Of a stretch of 32,000 nucleotides of DNA, positions 11,984 through 19,792 are shown one piece after another. A program made the translations under genes and the position numbers. Positions within the stretch are counted from its first letter, which is position 1; each line of letters starts with the position of its first letter. The notes beneath the pieces were generated by a model that did not search any database, was not told where the DNA came from, and was given only the letters and a program-made list of their open reading frames with translations. Source of the stretch: Mesoplasma florum L1 (GTDB taxonomy: Bacteria > Bacillota_I > Bacilli_A > Mycoplasmatales > Mycoplasmataceae); NCBI RefSeq assembly GCF_000008305.1, contig NC_006055.1, positions 630,001 to 662,000 on the forward strand, in the 5' to 3' direction.

Positions 11984-12612
11984 TAAAACATTCCTTCTGA
12001 GTCATCTTCCTCAAAAACATCTTCTTCTGAGATCATTTCTTCAGTAACTTTAATTTCTTCTTCAAAATTGTTTTCTTCATCTTGATTTTTATATGAAGCA
12101 AAATCTATTTGAGGTAAAGCTTCAAATCCACCTGTTATATTAAATAATTTAAAAAAGTTATCTGTTATTGTATAAAGATTTGCACCTGTTGAAGTTTTAC
12201 CAACTGCTTTAATTAATTTTTTTTGTCTTAATCTATAAATTTGGTATGAACATTCTGCTTGTCTTATCAACTCAATATCATGTTTTGAAATAGGACCTTT
12301 ATAAACAATGATTGATAAAACTTCGATACTTGAATTTGATAATCTTGAATTATTTACTTCTAATTCTAATTTAGCAAAGTATTCGTGCAATTCTGGTTTA
12401 GTTTGTAATCTATATTTATTTTTTCCAAATTTTTGAATTGAAAAAGCACAATCAGGATCTGAAGAATATTTTTTTTCTAATTCTAATATAGCTTCTTGGA
12501 TTGTAACTGGTCTAACATCTTCAAGTACATTTTGTAAGTCTAGTAAACTAATACCATCATCACCATATACGAATAATAAACCCTCAACTATTGCTTTAAT
12601 ATTGCTATTCAT
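11983..12612 (-). CDS. scpB: Segregation and condensation protein B
   Basis: Intact 209-aa ORF containing AIVEGLLFVYGDDGISLLDL. It is translationally coupled to scpA upstream and rluB downstream (1-nt overlap). Confidence 0.85.
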   Translation of the reverse strand: MNSNIKAIVEGLLFVYGDDGISLLDLQNVLEDVRPVTIQEAILELEKKYSSDPDCAFSIQKFGKNKYRLQTKPELHEYFAKLELEVNNSRLSNSSIEVLSIIVYKGPISKHDIELIRQAECSYQIYRLRQKKLIKAVGKTSTGANLYTITDNFFKLFNITGGFEALPQIDFASYKNQDEENNFEEEIKVTEEMISEEDVFEEDDSEGMF

Positions 12613-13438
12613 ATTCTTCTACCTCTTCTATTCTTCTTAATACAGATTCATCAGCTAAAGCTTCAGATGTGAATCTAAATTCTAATGTATCATTCTTTTG
12701 ATTAATAACAGCAACTTGATGTCTTACCATATCTAGTACAGCTAAAAAAGTTGAAATTAAATTAATTAAGTTTAATTCATATCCAGTGATAACTTCTTCA
12801 AGTCTTCACTCTTTATGTTTGTTTGTTTTCATAACATCAACAATTGATCTTGCAATTACTTGTGGAGAAATAATTTCATTTTGGATAGGTGCATAAGCAT
12901 CTTCTAACAACATATTTTCATCATACTCAAAATCTTCATCAAAGTTTTGAGCTCTTTGTAAAATTGATTGGAATATTTCAGCGAATTCGTCAATACCAAT
13001 ATCAAGTGGGTTTACCATTAGTTCATCATTTCTATCTGCAATAGATTGAATAAATGATTTTTTTGTTTTTGGTTTTGAAAAAGTCTTTAAATATTCTTCT
13101 TGTTTATTATAGAAATATTCACTAACTTCTTTAATTTGTCCATATTGATTAATTTGCTCCAATAAATCCTCAAACATCAATTCTTCTTCAGAATCATCAT
13201 CGTCATTTGGAAGCAATATTCTTGATTTCATTTCAATCATTTGAGCTGCTAAAACTAAATATTCACTAGCTAATTCAATATCTAATTTTTGTTGTCCCTC
13301 AATATATTTTAAATATTGATCAATTATTTCACTTAAATTAATTTCAAAGATATCAATCTTTTTATCTTTAACCATGTTTCACAATAGGTCTAAAGGACCT
13401 GAGAAATTGGAAATATTTAATTCGTCTCAATGTTGCAT
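12605..13438 (-). CDS. scpA: Segregation and condensation protein A (kleisin)
   Basis: ORF 12806-13375 is extended at both ends through TGA (12806, 13379, 13427). ATG 13436-13438 has an AAGGAG RBS. The N-terminus is MQHWDELNISNFSGPLDLLWNMVKDKKIDIFEINLSEIIDQYL. The TAG stop at 12605-12607 overlaps scpB by 8 nt. Confidence 0.85.
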
Positions 13439-13488
13439 GTTATTTCTCCTTGTTTATTTACTATTTTATAATAAATAAAATTCTTTTC

Positions 13489-14328
13489 CTATTTATTAAC
13501 TTGATTTAATTTTATTAATTTTAGTAATTCGTCATCGTTTTTTAAATCTCTATGCATTTGAATTAATGTTCGAGCAACTAAAACGAATAATAGTTCTGTT
13601 TCTAATGCTATGTTATATTTTGATTTTGGATCTGTAAAAGAATGTTCTAGATTGTTTCTTAATTTTCTTATGTAATGAAATGAAACTGATTTATTTAATA
13701 TTTTTAAATAATCTGCAAAAGCTAATTTTCTAACTGTTGTTTTGAATAGTGGCATTGATACTGAATCAAAATCTTTTGTAAAAATAAAATTACTTTTAAC
13801 ATCAATGCTCTTTAAATTGTATTTATCCACAAAAAATACATTAATAAACATTAACTTATCAAAAATTGAATATAAATATTTATACATAACCAATTGATCA
13901 TGAAATTCTAGTTCATTAATTGCAAATCTCTCATTGACACTATCATATGATTTGCTTTTAGAAGATTTATTAATGTAATAGTTAACAATCATTTTTATTT
14001 CAGAATAAATATAAAAGTCAAAAAAGTAATTTTTAATTGTCATTAAAGAAAGTAGAGTTTTTAAAAGATATAAAAATTCATGTGTATCTTTTGTTGAAAC
14101 AACTTTTTTACTTGGTTTAATATCAATATCTAAAATTCTATTATTTTTGATCAAATTAATATTAAGTCTGTGAGAAATTGTTGAATCTTTTAAAATTACT
14201 TCATCAATCATATTTGCGATAAAAAATAAAATATCGTCAGCTTCAGACTGCTTAATTCTTTTATTCTTAACTATTTTAATTAATTGTTTTATTTTTTCTG
14301 AATAATCAATTAATTTTAATTCATTCAT
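13489..14328 (-). CDS. Hypothetical 279-aa protein with a C-terminal HEPN-like Rx4H motif (candidate RNase/toxin)
   Basis: Intact ORF starting at ATG 14326-14328 with an AAAGGAG RBS. No housekeeping family was recognised. Residues 221-230, RKLRNNLEHS (nt 13642-13659 for R224..H229), fit the HEPN active-site signature R-N-x-L-x-H. The sequence looks helical throughout. The gene is markedly AT-rich. Confidence 0.4.
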   Translation of the reverse strand: MNELKLIDYSEKIKQLIKIVKNKRIKQSEADDILFFIANMIDEVILKDSTISHRLNINLIKNNRILDIDIKPSKKVVSTKDTHEFLYLLKTLLSLMTIKNYFFDFYIYSEIKMIVNYYINKSSKSKSYDSVNERFAINELEFHDQLVMYKYLYSIFDKLMFINVFFVDKYNLKSIDVKSNFIFTKDFDSVSMPLFKTTVRKLAFADYLKILNKSVSFHYIRKLRNNLEHSFTDPKSKYNIALETELLFVLVARTLIQMHRDLKNDDELLKLIKLNQVNK

Positions 14329-14344
14329 AAATTTCTCCTTTCTT

Positions 14345-14914
14345 TTAATTACTAATTATTTCAAATGCATTTGCATGTCATTTATAAATTCTAATGAATA
14401 TTTCATTTTGTTCTTTAAAAAATGATTTAATCATTTCACCAGTTATTTTATTGTCTAACTGTTCATTATGTTCTATTAATTTTTTATCTGAAAAAATAAT
14501 AACTTGTTTTTTTATTCATTCAGCTAATTTAGCCGCATGTTGCTTTTCTTCTAAAGTTAAAGTTTTGTTATTATATTTAACTTCAAAATCATCTTTAATA
14601 TCAGAATTTAAATTTTTATAAGTTATAACTTCTTTAAACATTGTTTGTTTAATTGACTCATGAAATTTATTTTCAAAATCATCTATTTCTTCTTGTTCAA
14701 TAAACAACATACCAAATAAATCAGAAGGCTTAACAAATTTATGATTATTATATGAAGCTATTTTACTAACTACTTCTTCAAACTTTTCGTAAAGTGATTT
14801 GCTTATTGTAATTTTATTTTCATTTTCAAAATATTTTATAAAATCACGAAATACTTTATTATTTAAATTTTCATCTATTTTAATATCATTAATTTTTTCA
14901 AAATTATTTTTCAT
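14345..14914 (-). CDS. Hypothetical 189-aa Glu/Lys-rich protein, upstream partner of the HEPN-like gene
   Basis: ORF 14516-14914 is extended through TGA 14516 and 14378 to TAA 14345-14347. ATG 14912-14914 has an AAGAGGA RBS. The stop lies 16 nt before the next ATG. No family motif was recognised, and there is no GS...DxD nucleotidyltransferase signature. Confidence 0.6.
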
Positions 14915-14923
14915 ATATTCCTC

Positions 14924-16408
14924 TTATTCTGTAACTATTCTTGAATTAATTTTTCTTTCAACTGATTGTTTTTCATACTCAGAAAAAATATGTTTAATAT
15001 TTGCGTAATCAACAAATTCTGCAATAACTTGATCAATTCAAATAACTGTTAAAAATAAATAAATACTATTTATAAAGAATAAAGCTGCTGCAGTTATTCT
15101 AATAACAATTTTTAAATTATTCTCAAAAGCAATAATATTATCTATATTTGTTTCTGCAATTATTGCTTCAATTGATTGGTAAGTAAATAAACCAGATTTA
15201 GTATAAATAATTGAATTAAAAACAAAAATAACTAAGAATTGACCTACAAGTAATGCTGAGGCGATAAAACCAGTTACTGGAACACCTTTTGTTGCTCTAT
15301 AGTTTCACATAATTGCGAATCCAAATCACATGTAAAATAATATAAAATATGACGCACCAAATATTAAATTAGAAATAACCATTCAAGTAGGATTAATAAT
15401 AAATGTACTAATTAATAGTGCTATTCCTGAGATTACAATTAGACCATAAATTAGATTTTTAACTCCAATCTTTGGTAATAAAATTTTATACAATGTATAA
15501 CCTATTGCAAATTGTCCAAATATAAATAATGCTTGGTATTTTCTATCTAAAGTTGATAATCATTCAACGTCATTATTACTTATTTTTGAATTTGTTACAA
15601 AATACATTCTAAATATTGGTGACTGAACAAAACCATAAATAACACCCAGTAATAAAGTTAAAATAATTAATTTTACCAAAGTTGATTTAGAGTATTTTAT
15701 TAATTCCTCTTTTAAAACTAATCTAAATTCACCAATTTTATTTTTATTTTCTGTTCCAATTTTAAAACTTATTAATAAAGAAATTAACAGACAGATAATT
15801 ACAAAAATATTTAGAATTATAAGTTTATCAGTTAGGAAGTTATTTAAACTTATTATTCAATTACCAATAAATGTTGCAAATGTTATAACAAACCCAACTG
15901 AGAAAGAAACTTTTAATGCAAATAGTCTATTGTATTTTTGCTCATTTAAATATAAAAAGTATAAACTCTGTGAAGAAATGCTTATGGCCAATATAATCGC
16001 TTGCAAAATAATAATAAATTTAAATCAAGCACTGTCATTTAATGGAATCAATAAAAGCATTGAAGCAGCAATTGACGCAATAATTGAAGATCTTATTCAT
16101 ATATTTCTGCTTCTAATTTTTCCTGTTATTCAAGTTGCTAGTGGTTTCATTAAAATAGCAAATAAAATTGAACTACCAAATAATAGCAATACAACAATTA
16201 TGGCTGGTGGTGTGTTATGAAAAGTATCAGTTAAAATGTTTGAATTTTCTTGTATCAAAATAGCATTCATAACTCATACGATTAAAGTCTGCATATAAAA
16301 TCAAAATAATTTTTTTTCAAAATTAAGTTTTTTGTAAATGAAGTATAAGAATAAAAAACCTAAAACAATTACAAAAGGAACAACAATAATTAAATCTCAA
16401 TTATTCAT
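14924..16408 (-). CDS. Polytopic membrane transporter-like protein (MFS-like, 494 aa)
   Basis: This gene is invisible in the ORF track because of frequent TGA codons. I checked the frame codon by codon and found no TAA/TAG from 14927 to ATG 16406-16408. About 12 hydrophobic segments are present. The start lies 1 nt after the argS stop. Confidence 0.6.
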
Positions 16409-16409
16409 G

Positions 16410-18071
16410 TTACATTGTTTCTAAAGCACTGACACCAATGATGTTAAATGCATTAGTCAATACTTGTAAAACAGACAATACCAATCCCAATCTTGCTTCA
16501 CTTGTTGGCACATCATTTTCATCAAGAATTTTTGTATCAGCATAGTATGAGTGGAATTGTTTACATACAGTTTGAATGTATTCACATATTAATTGAGGCG
16601 CTCTATTTTTTGCAGACATTTGGATAACTTGATTGAAGTTGTCTAATGTTAACAATAACTCAACTTCTTTTTTGTTTGATAATAAGTTAGATACGTTTAA
16701 ATTTGCTTTTATATTTTTTTGATCAGCTTGATTTAAAATTGAATGACATCTTGCTGTTGCATATTGAGCATAGTAAACAGGGTTTGTTGCATTTTTTTGT
16801 TGAACTAAATCTAAATCTAAATCCATGTGTGAACTACTTGATTTAGAAGCTAACATATATCTTAAAGCATCTTTTCCAACCATTTCCATAATGTCAACTA
16901 ATCAAACAGCAGTACCTTTTCTTTTACTCATTTTGTATTCTTTACCATCTTTAATAAGCCTTACCATTTGGACCATTTCAATTTCTAAAATGTCAGGATT
17001 ATGGCCTAAAAGTTGTAGTCCTGCTCTCATTCTAGGAATATATCCGTGGTGATCTCCACCTCAGATGTTAATTAAAACATCTGCATGAGTTCTTTGAATT
17101 CTAATGTTGTGAGTAGCTAGATCAGGAACAATGTAAGTTAGTGATCCGTCTTTTTTAACAAGAACACGATCTTTGTCATCCCCAAATTCAGTTGTTTTCA
17201 ATCATAAAGCTCCATCTGCTTCATAAGTAGCATTTTTTTCTTTATATTCTTTTAAAAGTTTTTCAATCTGATTTGTATCATACATTTCTTGTTCACTTGA
17301 ATAATGATCAATAACTACACCAAAATCTTTTAATTGTTGTTTGATTTCAGTTAAGAAATGTTGAACTGCTTCTTTTCTAAAAATTTGGTGAGTTTCTTCA
17401 TCTGAAATAGCTGTTTCAGTAAAAGTTAAATTTTTAAATTTATCACCATATTTTTGAATCATTATATTTGCTAAATCATCATAAAATGTTCCACCATAAG
17501 TATTAGCAGGTTTTTCTGTTTCAATACCTAAAGCTCAAAGATAATGAACAAAAACAGTAACTGCTAAAATATTTATTTGATTACCAGCATCGTTTGTGTA
17601 GAATTCAGTCTGAACTTCATAACCATCAAATTTCAAAACCTCTTCTAATACTGATCCTGTTACCGCATTTCTTGCATGACCTACGTGTAAAAATCCAGTT
17701 GGGTTAGCTGATACGTATTCAATATTAATAATTTTATTCTTAATTTTATTTTTACCGTACGCTTCTTTTAAAGTTGTAATATTTTTAATTGTTGTTGAAA
17801 GCAATTCTGTTTTTAATTTAATGTTAATAAAACCTGGTCCAGCAATTTCTATTTGGTCATAGTAATCTTTTTGTAATAATTCATTTTTAATATTTTCTGC
17901 TAATTGAATAGGATTTTGTTTCAACTCTTTTGCACTCATTAAAGCAAGAGTTGTAGAAAAATGACTATCAATATTATTTTTGTTAATTTCAACAATTGGG
18001 TCTTTTGATATATTAAATTTTTGCGCAATTTCTTTTAAGTCTTTTTTGACTATGCTAATTATGTTTTCCAT
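16410..18071 (-). CDS. argS: Arginine--tRNA ligase
   Basis: Three fragments (16410-16889, 17202-17462, 17535-18083) share a frame and are joined through TGA with no TAA/TAG. The start is ATG 18069-18071 after an AGGTGG RBS; the track start at 18083 is GTG. The protein has the HIGH-type signature [15 protein letters not shown] and the typical ArgS C-terminus ending ...ETM. Confidence 0.95.
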
Positions 18072-18092
18072 TTTTATTCCCACCTTCTAAGG

Positions 18093-19474: not shown

Positions 19475-19792
19475 TTATTTTAGGTTATTTTTTAATAAAT
19501 TTTTATCTTTTATGAAAAATAAATAAACTGTTAATATAACTGAAATAAATTCGAGTAATATAGTTATTAAATTCAGAATTCCTCAAGAATTATATAATGT
19601 GTTCATTGTAATCAAAGTATATGTGAATAGACTTATAGATATTATTAGTAAAAATAAAATATAAAAAATTTTATAAGAAATTTGCTTCTTTTTTATCATT
19701 AGAAATAAAAAATAAATAGATACAATAAATGAAACAAAAGATATTAAAATTGCTGAAGTTATTTGTAGTATTTCTATAGTTGAATATCTCAT
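19475..19792 (-). CDS. Small membrane protein (105 aa, about 3 TM helices)
   Basis: ORF 19583-19792 is extended through TGA 19583 to TAA 19475-19477. The protein is strongly hydrophobic. Confidence 0.6.

What the first reader, a model, noticed from the sequence alone, without database searches (positions are those of the whole stretch)
13489..14914. AT-rich two-gene cassette encoding a HEPN-motif protein and an unrecognisable partner, embedded in core genes
Two tightly linked ORFs of 189 aa and 279 aa, 16 nt apart, sit between the MFS-like gene/argS and scpA. Both have strong RBS and ATG starts. Neither resembles any housekeeping family I can recognise.

The 279-aa protein carries ...SFHYIRKLRNNLEHSF... 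about 50 residues from its C-terminus. R224-N-N-L-E-H229 matches the HEPN catalytic signature Rx4-6H in its common R-N-x-L-x-H form, as seen in HepT/DUF86, Abi_2 and related HEPN RNases. The preceding hydrophobic/basic helix is also typical.

The upstream partner has no GS/DxD minimal-nucleotidyltransferase signature, so this is not a canonical MntA-HepT pair.

Sampled 60-nt lines of the cassette are about 15-22% G+C, against about 35% for a sampled argS line. That is consistent with acquired or fast-evolving DNA.

Together these points suggest a compact, undescribed HEPN-based toxin-immunity or abortive-infection module in a minimal genome.
Basis: partly seen in the sequence, partly recalled or inferred. 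Interest (0 to 1): 0.7.

Follow-up and report, generated by a model that had tools for sequence, protein, structure and literature searches.

The report
Conserved Mollicute gene pair beside scpAB
The two ORFs are real, expressed genes of Mesoplasma florum (mfl552 and mfl551) that were inherited vertically at a fixed spot just upstream of scpA-scpB. The larger one keeps a strongly conserved HEPN-like R-N-x3-H motif but matches no known fold or family, so this is an uncharacterised core-lineage protein and not an acquired toxin-antitoxin cassette.

Summary
With code 4, a 189-aa ORF (14345-14914, minus strand) and a 279-aa ORF (13489-14328, minus strand) lie 16 nt apart between the MFS gene/argS and scpA, and R224-N-N-L-E-H229 is present.

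The window is Mesoplasma florum L1. The ORFs are mfl552 and mfl551. Both are core genes in 13 strains, both tolerate transposon insertions, and both are detected at about 60-80 protein copies per cell.

The 279-aa family exists only in the Spiroplasma-Entomoplasmataceae-Mycoides clade. In all 12 long contigs examined it lies immediately upstream of scpA-scpB-rluB. Its M. mycoides ortholog is JCVISYN3A_0326, which is uncharacterised and nonessential.

R-N-x3-H and D157 are kept in 20 of 22 diverse members. They are lost together in the mycoides cluster. The motif sits at the end of a helix before a loop, as in HEPN RNases.

No Pfam, PADLOC, PHROG or PDB profile match links the family to HEPN, and neither do three Foldseek searches.

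The 189-aa gene is also old but was lost several times, and the motif stayed intact without it. There are no plasmid or phage copies, and GC3 is typical of the genome.

The toxin-antitoxin/Abi and "acquired DNA" readings are not supported. A lineage-specific HEPN-like RNase remains plausible but unproven.

The parts
13489..14328 (-). 279-aa ORF = mfl551 of Mesoplasma florum L1. It is a basic (pI 9.4), soluble, all-alpha protein and the ortholog of JCVISYN3A_0326/MMSYN1_0326.
   Evidence: Code-4 ORF. 100% identical to the M. florum L1 protein. Locus tag and coordinates from Baby et al. 2018, Data Set S1. AF2 pLDDT 89.7, pTM 0.91, 11 helices. Detected by proteomics at about 62 copies per cell; FPKM 444. 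pI and lack of a TM-grade segment.
13642..13659 (-). Codons for R224-N-N-L-E-H229, the HEPN-like R-N-x3-H motif.
   Evidence: Invariant in alignment A1. R224, N225 and H229 are at least 90% conserved in the 22-member alignment A2. The motif lies at the C-terminal end of helix 215-229, followed by loop 230-240 and helix 241-261.
13855..13902 (-). Codons for H143...S154-x-x-D157-K158, a second conserved patch on the long helix 140-169.
   Evidence: At least 90% conserved in A2. D157 is replaced by N only in the two sequences that also lost R-N-x3-H, P0031 and P0035.
14345..14914 (-). 189-aa ORF = mfl552. It is mildly acidic (pI 5.8), has no recognisable domain, and evolves faster than its neighbour.
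   Evidence: Code-4 ORF with 2 TGA-Trp codons. Homologs are 58-69% identical in close Mesoplasma species. More distant homologs occupy the same position in E. ellychniae, W. somnilux and Mycoplasma sp. HU2014, and weakly in L007. Detected at about 80 copies per cell; FPKM 134. No Pfam or PDB match.
14335..14339 (-). Ribosome-binding site AGGAG, 6 nt upstream of the mfl551 ATG, inside the 16-nt gap.
   Evidence: Read directly from the sequence.
14920..14925 (-). Ribosome-binding site AAGAGG for mfl552. It overlaps the stop codon of the MFS gene.
   Evidence: Read directly from the sequence.
13454..13468 (-). Mapped transcription start (13454/13455) and -10 box TAAAAT (13462-13468) of the scpA-scpB-rluB-dNK-yebC unit. 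This marks the downstream boundary of the pair.
   Evidence: Matteau et al. 2020 datasets: gTSS at genome 643454-643455, -10 box at 643462-643468, TU_308. Window coordinate = genome coordinate minus 630000.
12605..13438 (-). scpA (context). It is the gene always found directly downstream of the family.
   Evidence: Pfam SMC_ScpA assigned to the orthologous neighbours. blastp table.
14924..16408 (-). MFS cation transporter (context), the MMSYN1_0325 equivalog. It is the upstream neighbour in Entomoplasmataceae and the mycoides cluster.
   Evidence: NCBIfam NF043061, 550.7 bits against a cut-off of 450.

Best explanation
The pair is not a mobile cassette. It consists of two old, vertically inherited chromosomal genes of the Spiroplasma-Entomoplasmataceae-Mycoides lineage.

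mfl551 (279 aa) belongs to an orphan family that is always the first gene of the conserved block X-scpA-scpB-rluB-dNK-yebC. It is a soluble, all-alpha protein. Its C-terminal half carries one conserved polar site: R224, N225 and H229 at the end of a helix, plus D157/K158, S154 and H143 on a long preceding helix.

My best reading (inferred, not shown) is that this is a very divergent HEPN-like site that cleaves or binds RNA without a metal, probably acting as a dimer. I infer a low-copy cellular role in RNA processing, quality control or stress response that is dispensable in rich medium. In the mycoides cluster, including the minimal cell's JCVISYN3A_0326, the site has been inactivated.

mfl552 (189 aa) is an ancient accessory neighbour that has been lost repeatedly. 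It may modulate mfl551 but is not an obligate antitoxin.
For: Identity and expression:
- The ORFs are mfl551 and mfl552. Both are core genes in 13 strains and both are transposon-dispensable.
- Both mRNAs and both proteins are detected.

Restricted vertical family:
- An exhaustive HMMER search of 1.84 billion representatives found only 26 hits. Every hit whose source was looked up is a Mollicute (Spiroplasma, Mesoplasma and relatives, Mycoplasma); several others are unnamed metagenome or Logan sequences.
- In 12 long contigs the homolog is always directly upstream of scpA-scpB-rluB, while the upstream neighbours vary: argS-MFS, guaAB, gcpE, or aldose epimerase.
- The ortholog in M. mycoides is JCVISYN3A_0326.
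- The family diverges slightly faster than ScpA: 26-55% identity against 31-59% across loci L002-L014.

Active-site-like constellation:
- R224, N225, H229, D157, K158, S154 and H143 are at least 90% conserved at about 20-55% overall identity.
- D157 and R-N-x3-H are lost together only in P0031 and P0035.
- The motif's position (end of a helix, then loop, then helix), the polar residue after R, the conserved acidic residue in a preceding helix, and a 45-residue insert all fit the HEPN description in PMC3710099.

Not mobile:
- GC3 is typical.
- There are no flanking repeats.
- There are no plasmid or phage hits.
Against: - No statistical link to HEPN. Pfam, PADLOC, PHROGs and NCBIfam gave nothing. 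The PDB profile search gave nothing. An iterated profile search added no known family.
- Foldseek on the full model and on the C-terminal domain model had best E-values of 0.12-0.27. No HEPN structure ranked near the top; Csm6 chains appeared only at E about 2.6.
- I could not inspect 3D coordinates, so the proximity of D157 to the motif is inferred only from their co-loss.
- The truncated model may have lacked HEPN helix 1.
- There are no biochemical data.
- The conserved site could bind phosphate, DNA or protein instead of cleaving RNA.
Confidence: 0.4

Rival explanations
1. One reading: a two-gene HEPN toxin (279 aa) and antitoxin or immunity protein (189 aa), or an abortive-infection module acquired by horizontal transfer.
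For: - The HEPN-like motif is conserved.
- The gene order (small acidic protein upstream, larger basic protein downstream), the 16-nt spacing and the pI values of 5.8 and 9.4 are typical of toxin-antitoxin pairs.
- The pairing is old: it is seen in Mesoplasma, Entomoplasma, W. somnilux and HU2014, and weakly in L007.
- A divergent relative (P0045) lies near a SocA/Panacea-like ORF.
Against: - An intact-motif 279-aa gene exists without the 189-aa gene in W. luminosum, S. alleghenense and L008.
- HU2014 keeps the 189-aa gene beside a motif-dead partner.
- The locus is strictly syntenic and vertically inherited across a whole clade.
- There are no plasmid or phage copies and no PADLOC hit.
- GC3 is native.
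- mfl552 tolerates transposon insertion. This point is weak, because insertions could be polar on mfl551.
- At 279 aa the protein is large for a type II toxin.
Confidence: 0.12
2. A non-catalytic accessory or adaptor of the SMC-ScpAB condensin or of chromosome segregation, kept next to scpAB for co-regulation. On this view the conserved basic motif binds nucleic acid or a partner protein.
For: - The gene is always the immediate upstream neighbour of scpA-scpB in 12 genomes, even where everything further upstream differs.
- Its divergence rate tracks that of ScpA.
- It is basic and low in copy number, like ScpB.
- From memory, other Firmicutes place a degenerate XerD-like gene at this position. 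This is a lead, not a test.
Against: - rluB, dNK and yebC are equally syntenic without any functional link to ScpAB, so the linkage may be only inherited gene order.
- In M. florum scpA has its own mapped promoter in the 50-nt gap, and mfl551 is not part of that transcription unit.
- Foldseek found no similarity to kleisin, ScpB, ParB or recombinase structures.
- The Phage_int_SAM_4 hit is sub-threshold and seen in 1 of 22 members.
Confidence: 0.15
3. A single-gene innate defence nuclease, Abi-like, made of a sensor domain plus a HEPN-like effector, that became fixed in this lineage. The 189-aa gene would be incidental.
For: - The architecture (an N-terminal helical domain plus a C-terminal motif-bearing domain of about 280 aa) resembles single-protein HEPN Abi systems such as AbiD/F-type proteins (general knowledge; PMC3710099).
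- The gene stands alone in several lineages.
- It is dispensable in culture.
Against: - Defence genes are normally patchy and lie in variable islands. This one is universal, syntenic and conserved at a rate close to ScpA.
- There is no PADLOC, PHROG or Abi Pfam match.
- It is retained in endosymbiotic Spiroplasma and in M. florum, for which I know of no phage (my own knowledge).
Confidence: 0.1
4. A new helical fold unrelated to HEPN. On this view the R-N-x3-H resemblance is convergent, and the site has some other chemistry, for example phosphate or nucleotide binding, or a structural role.
For: - Two high-confidence models (pLDDT 90 and 94) find nothing at E < 0.1 in PDB or BFVD.
- No profile link was found.
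- The loose motif is common by chance.
Against: - The strict motif, its placement in the secondary structure and the co-lost acidic residue all match the HEPN description.
- HEPN families are notoriously undetectable by sequence search or by Foldseek.
Confidence: 0.2

Closest known systems
HEPN superfamily RNases (HepT/DUF86, Abi_2, Csm6/Csx1, RnlA and others; Anantharaman et al. 2013, PMC3710099)
   Same: - An R-x4-H motif with N after the R, nearly invariant across the family.
- The motif lies at the end of a helix and the start of the loop to the next helix.
- A conserved acidic residue lies in a preceding long helix.
- A long insert precedes the motif helix.
- The context is all-alpha.
   Different: - No HMM, profile or Foldseek match to any HEPN family or structure.
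- It is vertically inherited in a fixed housekeeping neighbourhood, not in defence or toxin-antitoxin contexts.
- An extra N-terminal helical region of about 130 residues.
- Activity is untested.
HepT-MntA (HEPN-MNT) toxin-antitoxin systems
   Same: A small upstream gene and a downstream gene bearing the HEPN-like motif, closely spaced, with an acidic/basic charge pattern.
   Different: - The upstream protein has no nucleotidyltransferase GS/DxD signature and no Pfam match.
- The partners do not strictly co-occur.
- The putative toxin is twice the usual size.
- The locus is not mobile.
JCVISYN3A_0326 / MMSYN1_0326 (uncharacterised protein of the minimal cell JCVI-syn3A)
   Same: It is the positional and sequence ortholog: profile E = 2e-32, and the same MFS-X-scpA-scpB-rluB-dNK-yebC context. 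It is likewise nonessential.
   Different: - The mycoides protein is shorter (253 aa).
- It has lost R224, N225, H229 and D157.
- It has no 189-aa neighbour.
- Some M. mycoides strains carry truncated copies.

Membership tests
HEPN superfamily | Conserved Rx4-6H motif with a polar residue (N, D or H) after the R | tested here: met
   R224-N225-x3-H229 is kept in 20 of 22 family members. Definition taken from PMC3710099. The strict motif arises by chance in only 3.2% of shuffles.
HEPN superfamily | [quoted passage not shown] | tested here: met
   DSSP on two AF2 models places helix 215-229 ending at H229, then loop 230-240, then helix 241-261.
HEPN superfamily | Four-helix up-down bundle recognisable by structure comparison with solved HEPN domains | tested here: inconclusive
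HEPN superfamily | Second conserved acidic residue in helix 2, placed next to the motif | tested here: inconclusive
   D157-K158 on helix 140-169 is at least 90% conserved and is lost only together with R-N-x3-H. 3D proximity could not be checked because no coordinates were accessible.
HEPN superfamily | Profile or HMM similarity to an established HEPN family | tested here: not met
   Pfam, PADLOC, PHROGs and NCBIfam scans, a PDB profile search and an iterated profile search all gave no HEPN hit.
HEPN superfamily | Metal-independent RNase activity that depends on the R and H residues | not testable with these tools
   Requires biochemistry.
Type II/VII toxin-antitoxin module | Toxin and cognate antitoxin strictly co-occur | tested here: not met
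   The 279-aa gene has an intact motif but no 189-aa neighbour in W. luminosum, S. alleghenense and L008. The 189-aa gene is kept beside a motif-dead partner in HU2014. A copy elsewhere in those genomes is not excluded.
Type II/VII toxin-antitoxin module | Patchy, horizontally mobile distribution, often on plasmids, on phages or in islands | tested here: not met
   Synteny is conserved in 12 genomes. tblastn against 72,556 plasmids and 50,697 phages found no match. GC3 is native. There are no flanking repeats.
Type II/VII toxin-antitoxin module | Growth inhibition by the toxin, neutralised by the antitoxin | not testable with these tools
   There is only indirect evidence: both genes tolerate transposon insertion in M. 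florum.
Tyrosine recombinase / XerD-like (considered because of a weak Pfam hit and the position next to scpAB) | SAM-like N-terminal domain plus an alpha/beta catalytic domain carrying R-K-H-R-H/W-Y | tested here: not met
   The Phage_int_SAM_4 hit has E = 0.0076, is below the cut-off, and appears in 1 of 22 members. The model is all-alpha. No recombinase appears in the Foldseek output. H218 and R221 are not conserved across the family.

The most novel reading that the evidence does not exclude
The mfl551/JCVISYN3A_0326 family may be a previously unrecognised, vertically inherited nuclease or nucleic-acid-binding protein with a fold that current libraries do not match. It would be functionally coupled to SMC-ScpAB as the first gene of the conserved scpAB block throughout the Spiroplasma-Entomoplasmataceae-Mycoides clade. 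That would make it a lineage-specific chromosome or RNA-handling factor that the mycoides cluster, and so the minimal cell, has already disabled.
Probability: 0.1. Interest if true: 0.65.

Novelty: new variant of a known kind. Interest (0 to 1): 0.35.

Why it matters
M. florum and JCVI-syn3A are the main near-minimal model cells, and their genes of unknown function are a standing problem.

This work assigns one of those genes (mfl551 = JCVISYN3A_0326) to a clade-wide family. It gives the family a defined putative active site (R224/N225/H229 plus D157). It shows that the minimal cell's copy has lost that site. It also shows that the gene's only constant partner on the chromosome is scpAB.

These results yield cheap, direct tests: point mutants, an RNase assay, and an interaction test with ScpAB. 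mfl551 has no TGA codons, so it can be expressed in E. coli as it stands.

If the protein is a genuine HEPN RNase, it would be an unusual case of a vertically inherited, housekeeping-context bacterial HEPN enzyme. If not, it is simply a conserved hypothetical protein. Because both orthologs are dispensable, the impact is limited either way.

Tried and rejected
- Acquired or foreign DNA: rejected. GC3 is 13.2%, equal to the window norm. Only short AT-rich chance repeats flank the genes. Synteny is clade-wide.
- XerD-like recombinase: rejected. The lead was a weak Phage_int_SAM_4 hit and, from memory, streptococcal xerD-scpAB synteny. The model is all-alpha, no recombinase fold hit was found, and the hit occurs in 1 of 22 members.
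- Transmembrane protein, as the public annotations say: rejected. The maximum 19-residue Kyte-Doolittle score is 1.49, and the AF2 model is a confident helical one with no membrane-protein signal.
- wHTH-Calcineurin_assc or EncFtn-like domains in the 189-aa protein: rejected as noise. The matches are 28-residue, sub-threshold stretches.
- Known RNA elements: none in the window.
- Promoter and terminator consensus scans: not above background. No experimental TSS is mapped for mfl551 or mfl552.
- Iterating the profile search with the 22-member alignment: no new families.
- Relaxed evolution after motif loss: not evident. The homolog/ScpA identity is 41%/55% for HU2014 against M. mycoides, and 38%/59% for the two motif-intact Williamsoniiplasma species.
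Full report
**Observation**

The window uses genetic code 4, because argS, scpA and the MFS gene are otherwise interrupted by TGA. My code-4 ORF call gives these genes on the minus strand:
- argS, 16410-18083
- a 494-aa MFS transporter, 14924-16408
- a 189-aa ORF, 14345-14914
- a 279-aa ORF, 13489-14328
- scpA, 12605-13438
- scpB, then an rluB-like gene, a deoxynucleoside kinase and yebC

The gaps are 9 nt (MFS to 189), 16 nt (189 to 279) and 50 nt (279 to scpA). Both ORFs start with ATG behind AGGAG-type ribosome-binding sites. R224-N-N-L-E-H229 is present, 50 residues from the C-terminus.

G+C is 20.2% and 18.9%, against a mean of 26.4% (sd 3.8) for the window's 34 genes. GC3 of the 279-aa gene (13.2%) is typical, so the deficit comes from amino-acid composition in codon positions 1 and 2.

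The strict motif R[NDH]x3H occurs once in 9,847 residues of the window's proteins and in 3.2% of shuffles of this protein. The loose Rx4-6H motif occurs in 44% of shuffles.

**Identity of the locus**

The MFS protein is the NCBIfam equivalog of MMSYN1_0325 (550.7 bits). The 279-aa protein is 100% identical to a Mesoplasma florum L1 protein.

Baby et al. 2018 (PMC5893858, Data Set S1) give genome coordinates equal to window coordinates plus 630000. They give these annotations:
- The 279-aa ORF is mfl551: core in 13 strains, transposon-nonessential, homolog present in JCVI-syn3.0.
- The 189-aa ORF is mfl552: core, nonessential, absent from syn3.0.

Matteau et al. 2020 (PMC7745072) report the following:
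- Both mRNAs are detected, at FPKM 444 (mfl551) and 134 (mfl552).
- Both proteins are detected, at about 62 and 80 copies per cell.
- scpA has its own TSS (window 13454/13455) and -10 box (13462-13468). This heads a transcription unit scpA-scpB-rluB-dNK-yebC.
- No TSS is mapped for mfl551-553.

**Distribution and context**

Word-indexed and exhaustive HMMER searches find the 279-aa family only in these groups:
- Mesoplasma, Entomoplasma, Williamsoniiplasma and "Acholeplasma" multilocale
- Mycoplasma sp. HU2014 and M. mycoides
- Spiroplasma
- a few metagenomic Mollicute contigs

That is 26 hits among 1.84 billion representatives.

In every long contig I could read, the homolog lies immediately upstream of scpA-scpB-rluB. 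The contigs are from M. florum, M. grammopterae, M. seiffertii, A. multilocale, E. ellychniae, W. somnilux, W. luminosum, Mycoplasma sp. HU2014, M. mycoides, S. alleghenense, a 1-Mb JGI contig (L007) and GCA_964031045 (L008). The genes further upstream differ: argS-MFS, guaA-guaB, gcpE on the other strand, or aldose epimerase.

The M. mycoides ortholog is 253 aa and lies between the 0325 MFS gene and scpA. It is JCVISYN3A_0326, listed as uncharacterised and nonessential by Tn5 in Syn3A (Breuer et al. 2019 supplement).

Protein identity to M. florum across loci L002-L014 runs 26-55% for this family, against 31-59% for ScpA. Other species pairs show it evolving somewhat faster than ScpA and about as fast as the MFS gene.

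tblastn against 72,556 plasmids and 50,697 phages finds nothing for either ORF. There are no flanking repeats and no Rfam elements. This is a vertically inherited locus, not an insertion.

**The 189-aa gene**

Close Mesoplasma species have homologs at 58-69% identity, against 84-92% for the 279-aa protein in close Mesoplasma relatives. A profile I built from them detects homologs at the same position in these genomes:
- E. ellychniae (E = 1e-43)
- W. somnilux (1e-40), with an extra 86-aa membrane ORF in between
- Mycoplasma sp. HU2014 (8e-36)
- L007, weakly: hmmsearch --max E = 7e-7, hhalign probability 86%, blastp 25% identity

It is absent from the locus in W. luminosum, M. mycoides, S. alleghenense and L008, where the intergenic space is too short to hide it. 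It has no significant Pfam or PDB match. It lacks GS and DxD signatures and is mildly acidic (pI 5.8).

**What the 279-aa protein looks like**

AlphaFold2 with 12 homologs gives a confident all-alpha model (pLDDT 89.7, pTM 0.91). Its helices are at 3-22, 27-46, 50-61, 79-98, 106-124, 140-169, 183-190, 198-213, 215-229, 241-261 and 265-277. A separate model of residues 132-279 agrees (pLDDT 94).

Across 22 members that share as little as about 20% identity, S214 is invariant. The positions conserved at 90% or more are H143, S154, D157, K158, R224, N225 and H229. R-N-x3-H is present in 20 of the 22. The two exceptions are Mycoplasma sp. HU2014 (KFNLDR) and M. mycoides (KTNLD-). They are also the only two with D157 changed to N. 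This co-loss suggests that D157 and the R/N/H triad form one functional site.

According to Anantharaman et al. 2013 (PMC3710099), HEPN domains have these features:
- They are four-helix up-down bundles.
- They often carry an insert between helices 2 and 3.
- A polar residue follows the R.
- A conserved acidic residue lies in helix 2.

A mapping of helix 1 = 106-124, helix 2 = 140-169 (D157), insert = 170-214, helix 3 = 215-229 (the motif at its end) and helix 4 = 241-261 fits that description.

**What does not support HEPN membership**

- No member hits any HEPN family in Pfam, PADLOC, PHROGs or NCBIfam.
- A family profile finds no PDB sequence.
- Foldseek of the full model against PDB has a best E of 0.12, with Csm6 chains only at E about 2.6.
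- Foldseek of the domain model against PDB has a best E of 0.27, with no HEPN protein among 31 hits.
- Foldseek against BFVD finds nothing.

Foldseek is weak on divergent helical bundles, and my truncated model may have omitted helix 1. The fold test is therefore inconclusive, not negative. Even so, membership is not demonstrated.

**Toxin-antitoxin or Abi reading**

In favour:
- The gene order, spacing and acidic/basic charge pattern are typical of toxin-antitoxin pairs.
- The pairing is old.

Against:
- Three lineages keep an intact motif without the 189-aa gene.
- HU2014 keeps the 189-aa gene beside a motif-dead partner.
- The locus is syntenic across a whole clade, with no mobile copies.
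- There is no match to any defence-system model.
- Both genes tolerate transposon insertion.

I rate this reading at about 0.12.

**Condensin-accessory reading**

A condensin-accessory role is suggested only by the invariable adjacency to scpAB. That adjacency is no stronger than the adjacency of rluB, dNK and yebC in the same block. In M. florum scpA also has its own promoter. I rate this reading at about 0.15.

**Best explanation (confidence 0.4 overall)**

The part stating that these are vertically inherited core-lineage genes, not an acquired cassette, carries confidence of about 0.9.

On this explanation mfl551 is a lineage-specific, low-copy, dispensable protein. Its conserved R224/N225/H229 + D157 site most likely works like a HEPN RNase active site, that is, metal-independent RNA cleavage or RNA binding. 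The site was inactivated in the mycoides cluster, including the minimal cell. mfl552 is an old, repeatedly lost accessory.

Shown: existence, expression, distribution, synteny, motif conservation and motif placement in the secondary structure. Inferred: fold class, catalysis, substrate, and any interaction with Mfl552 or ScpAB.

**Novelty and interest**

Both genes are annotated only as hypothetical, and mfl551 is wrongly annotated as transmembrane. I found no paper that discusses them.

The following results appear to be new, but they are modest because both orthologs are nonessential and no function is proven:
- the family definition
- the conserved site and its loss in JCVISYN3A_0326
- the fixed position ahead of scpAB

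Interest: 0.35.

Noticed in passing
window 14924-16408 (minus strand) and 15984-16298 (plus strand): The MFS gene is the equivalog of MMSYN1_0325, which is essential in Syn3A. In the Baby 2018 table RAST splits it into a 3' fragment scored nonessential and an antisense ORF (peg.559) scored essential. This suggests that the 5' half of the MFS gene lacks insertions, so the gene may be essential in M. florum too.
   Followed up: partly
window 16152-16207 and 13489-16408: The published transcription unit pyrH-frr-argS ends at a weak terminator inside the MFS gene. No TSS is mapped for mfl553, mfl552 or mfl551, yet Mfl551 and Mfl552 are detected. mfl551 FPKM (444) is three times that of mfl552 (134). 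How these genes are transcribed is unexplained.
   Followed up: partly
L011 3173-3433; L012 3137-3400: Both Williamsoniiplasma species carry an 86-87-aa ORF with two hydrophobic segments directly upstream of the 279-aa homolog. In W. luminosum it stands where the 189-aa gene would be.
   Followed up: no
L009 121-2422; L010 751-1557: The most divergent relatives (P0045, P0047, P0049, P0050; profile E about 1e-4, R-N-x3-H kept) lie on short contigs that are not next to scpA. P0045 lies beside a mini-RNase III-like ORF and a SocA/Panacea-like ORF, both sub-threshold Pfam hits. They may form a paralogous subfamily in a different context.
   Followed up: partly
protein cluster of P0031: A 137-aa protein deposited as Vibrio harveyi (MBY7703943.1) clusters at 90% identity or more with the Mycoplasma sp. 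HU2014 homolog. This is probably Mollicute contamination of that assembly.
   Followed up: no
protein cluster of P0035; L004 and L014: Some M. mycoides subsp. mycoides strains carry truncated copies (216 and 177 aa) of the 0326 ortholog. IS transposase genes (DDE_Tnp_1) lie close to the locus in M. mycoides and HU2014. Both points are consistent with decay of the gene in that cluster.
   Followed up: no
Matteau 2020 Dataset, supplementary file 9 as stored: The protein-sequence column is offset relative to the gene rows. One of the misplaced sequences is a 184-aa M. florum protein with ...IRELRNQISH..., a weak Abi_2-like hit (Pfam E = 0.051). M. florum may therefore encode other proteins with HEPN-type motifs elsewhere in its genome.
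   Followed up: partly
window 19475-19792 (minus strand): A 105-aa hydrophobic ORF has the lowest G+C of the window (16.4%), lower than either gene of the finding.
   Followed up: no
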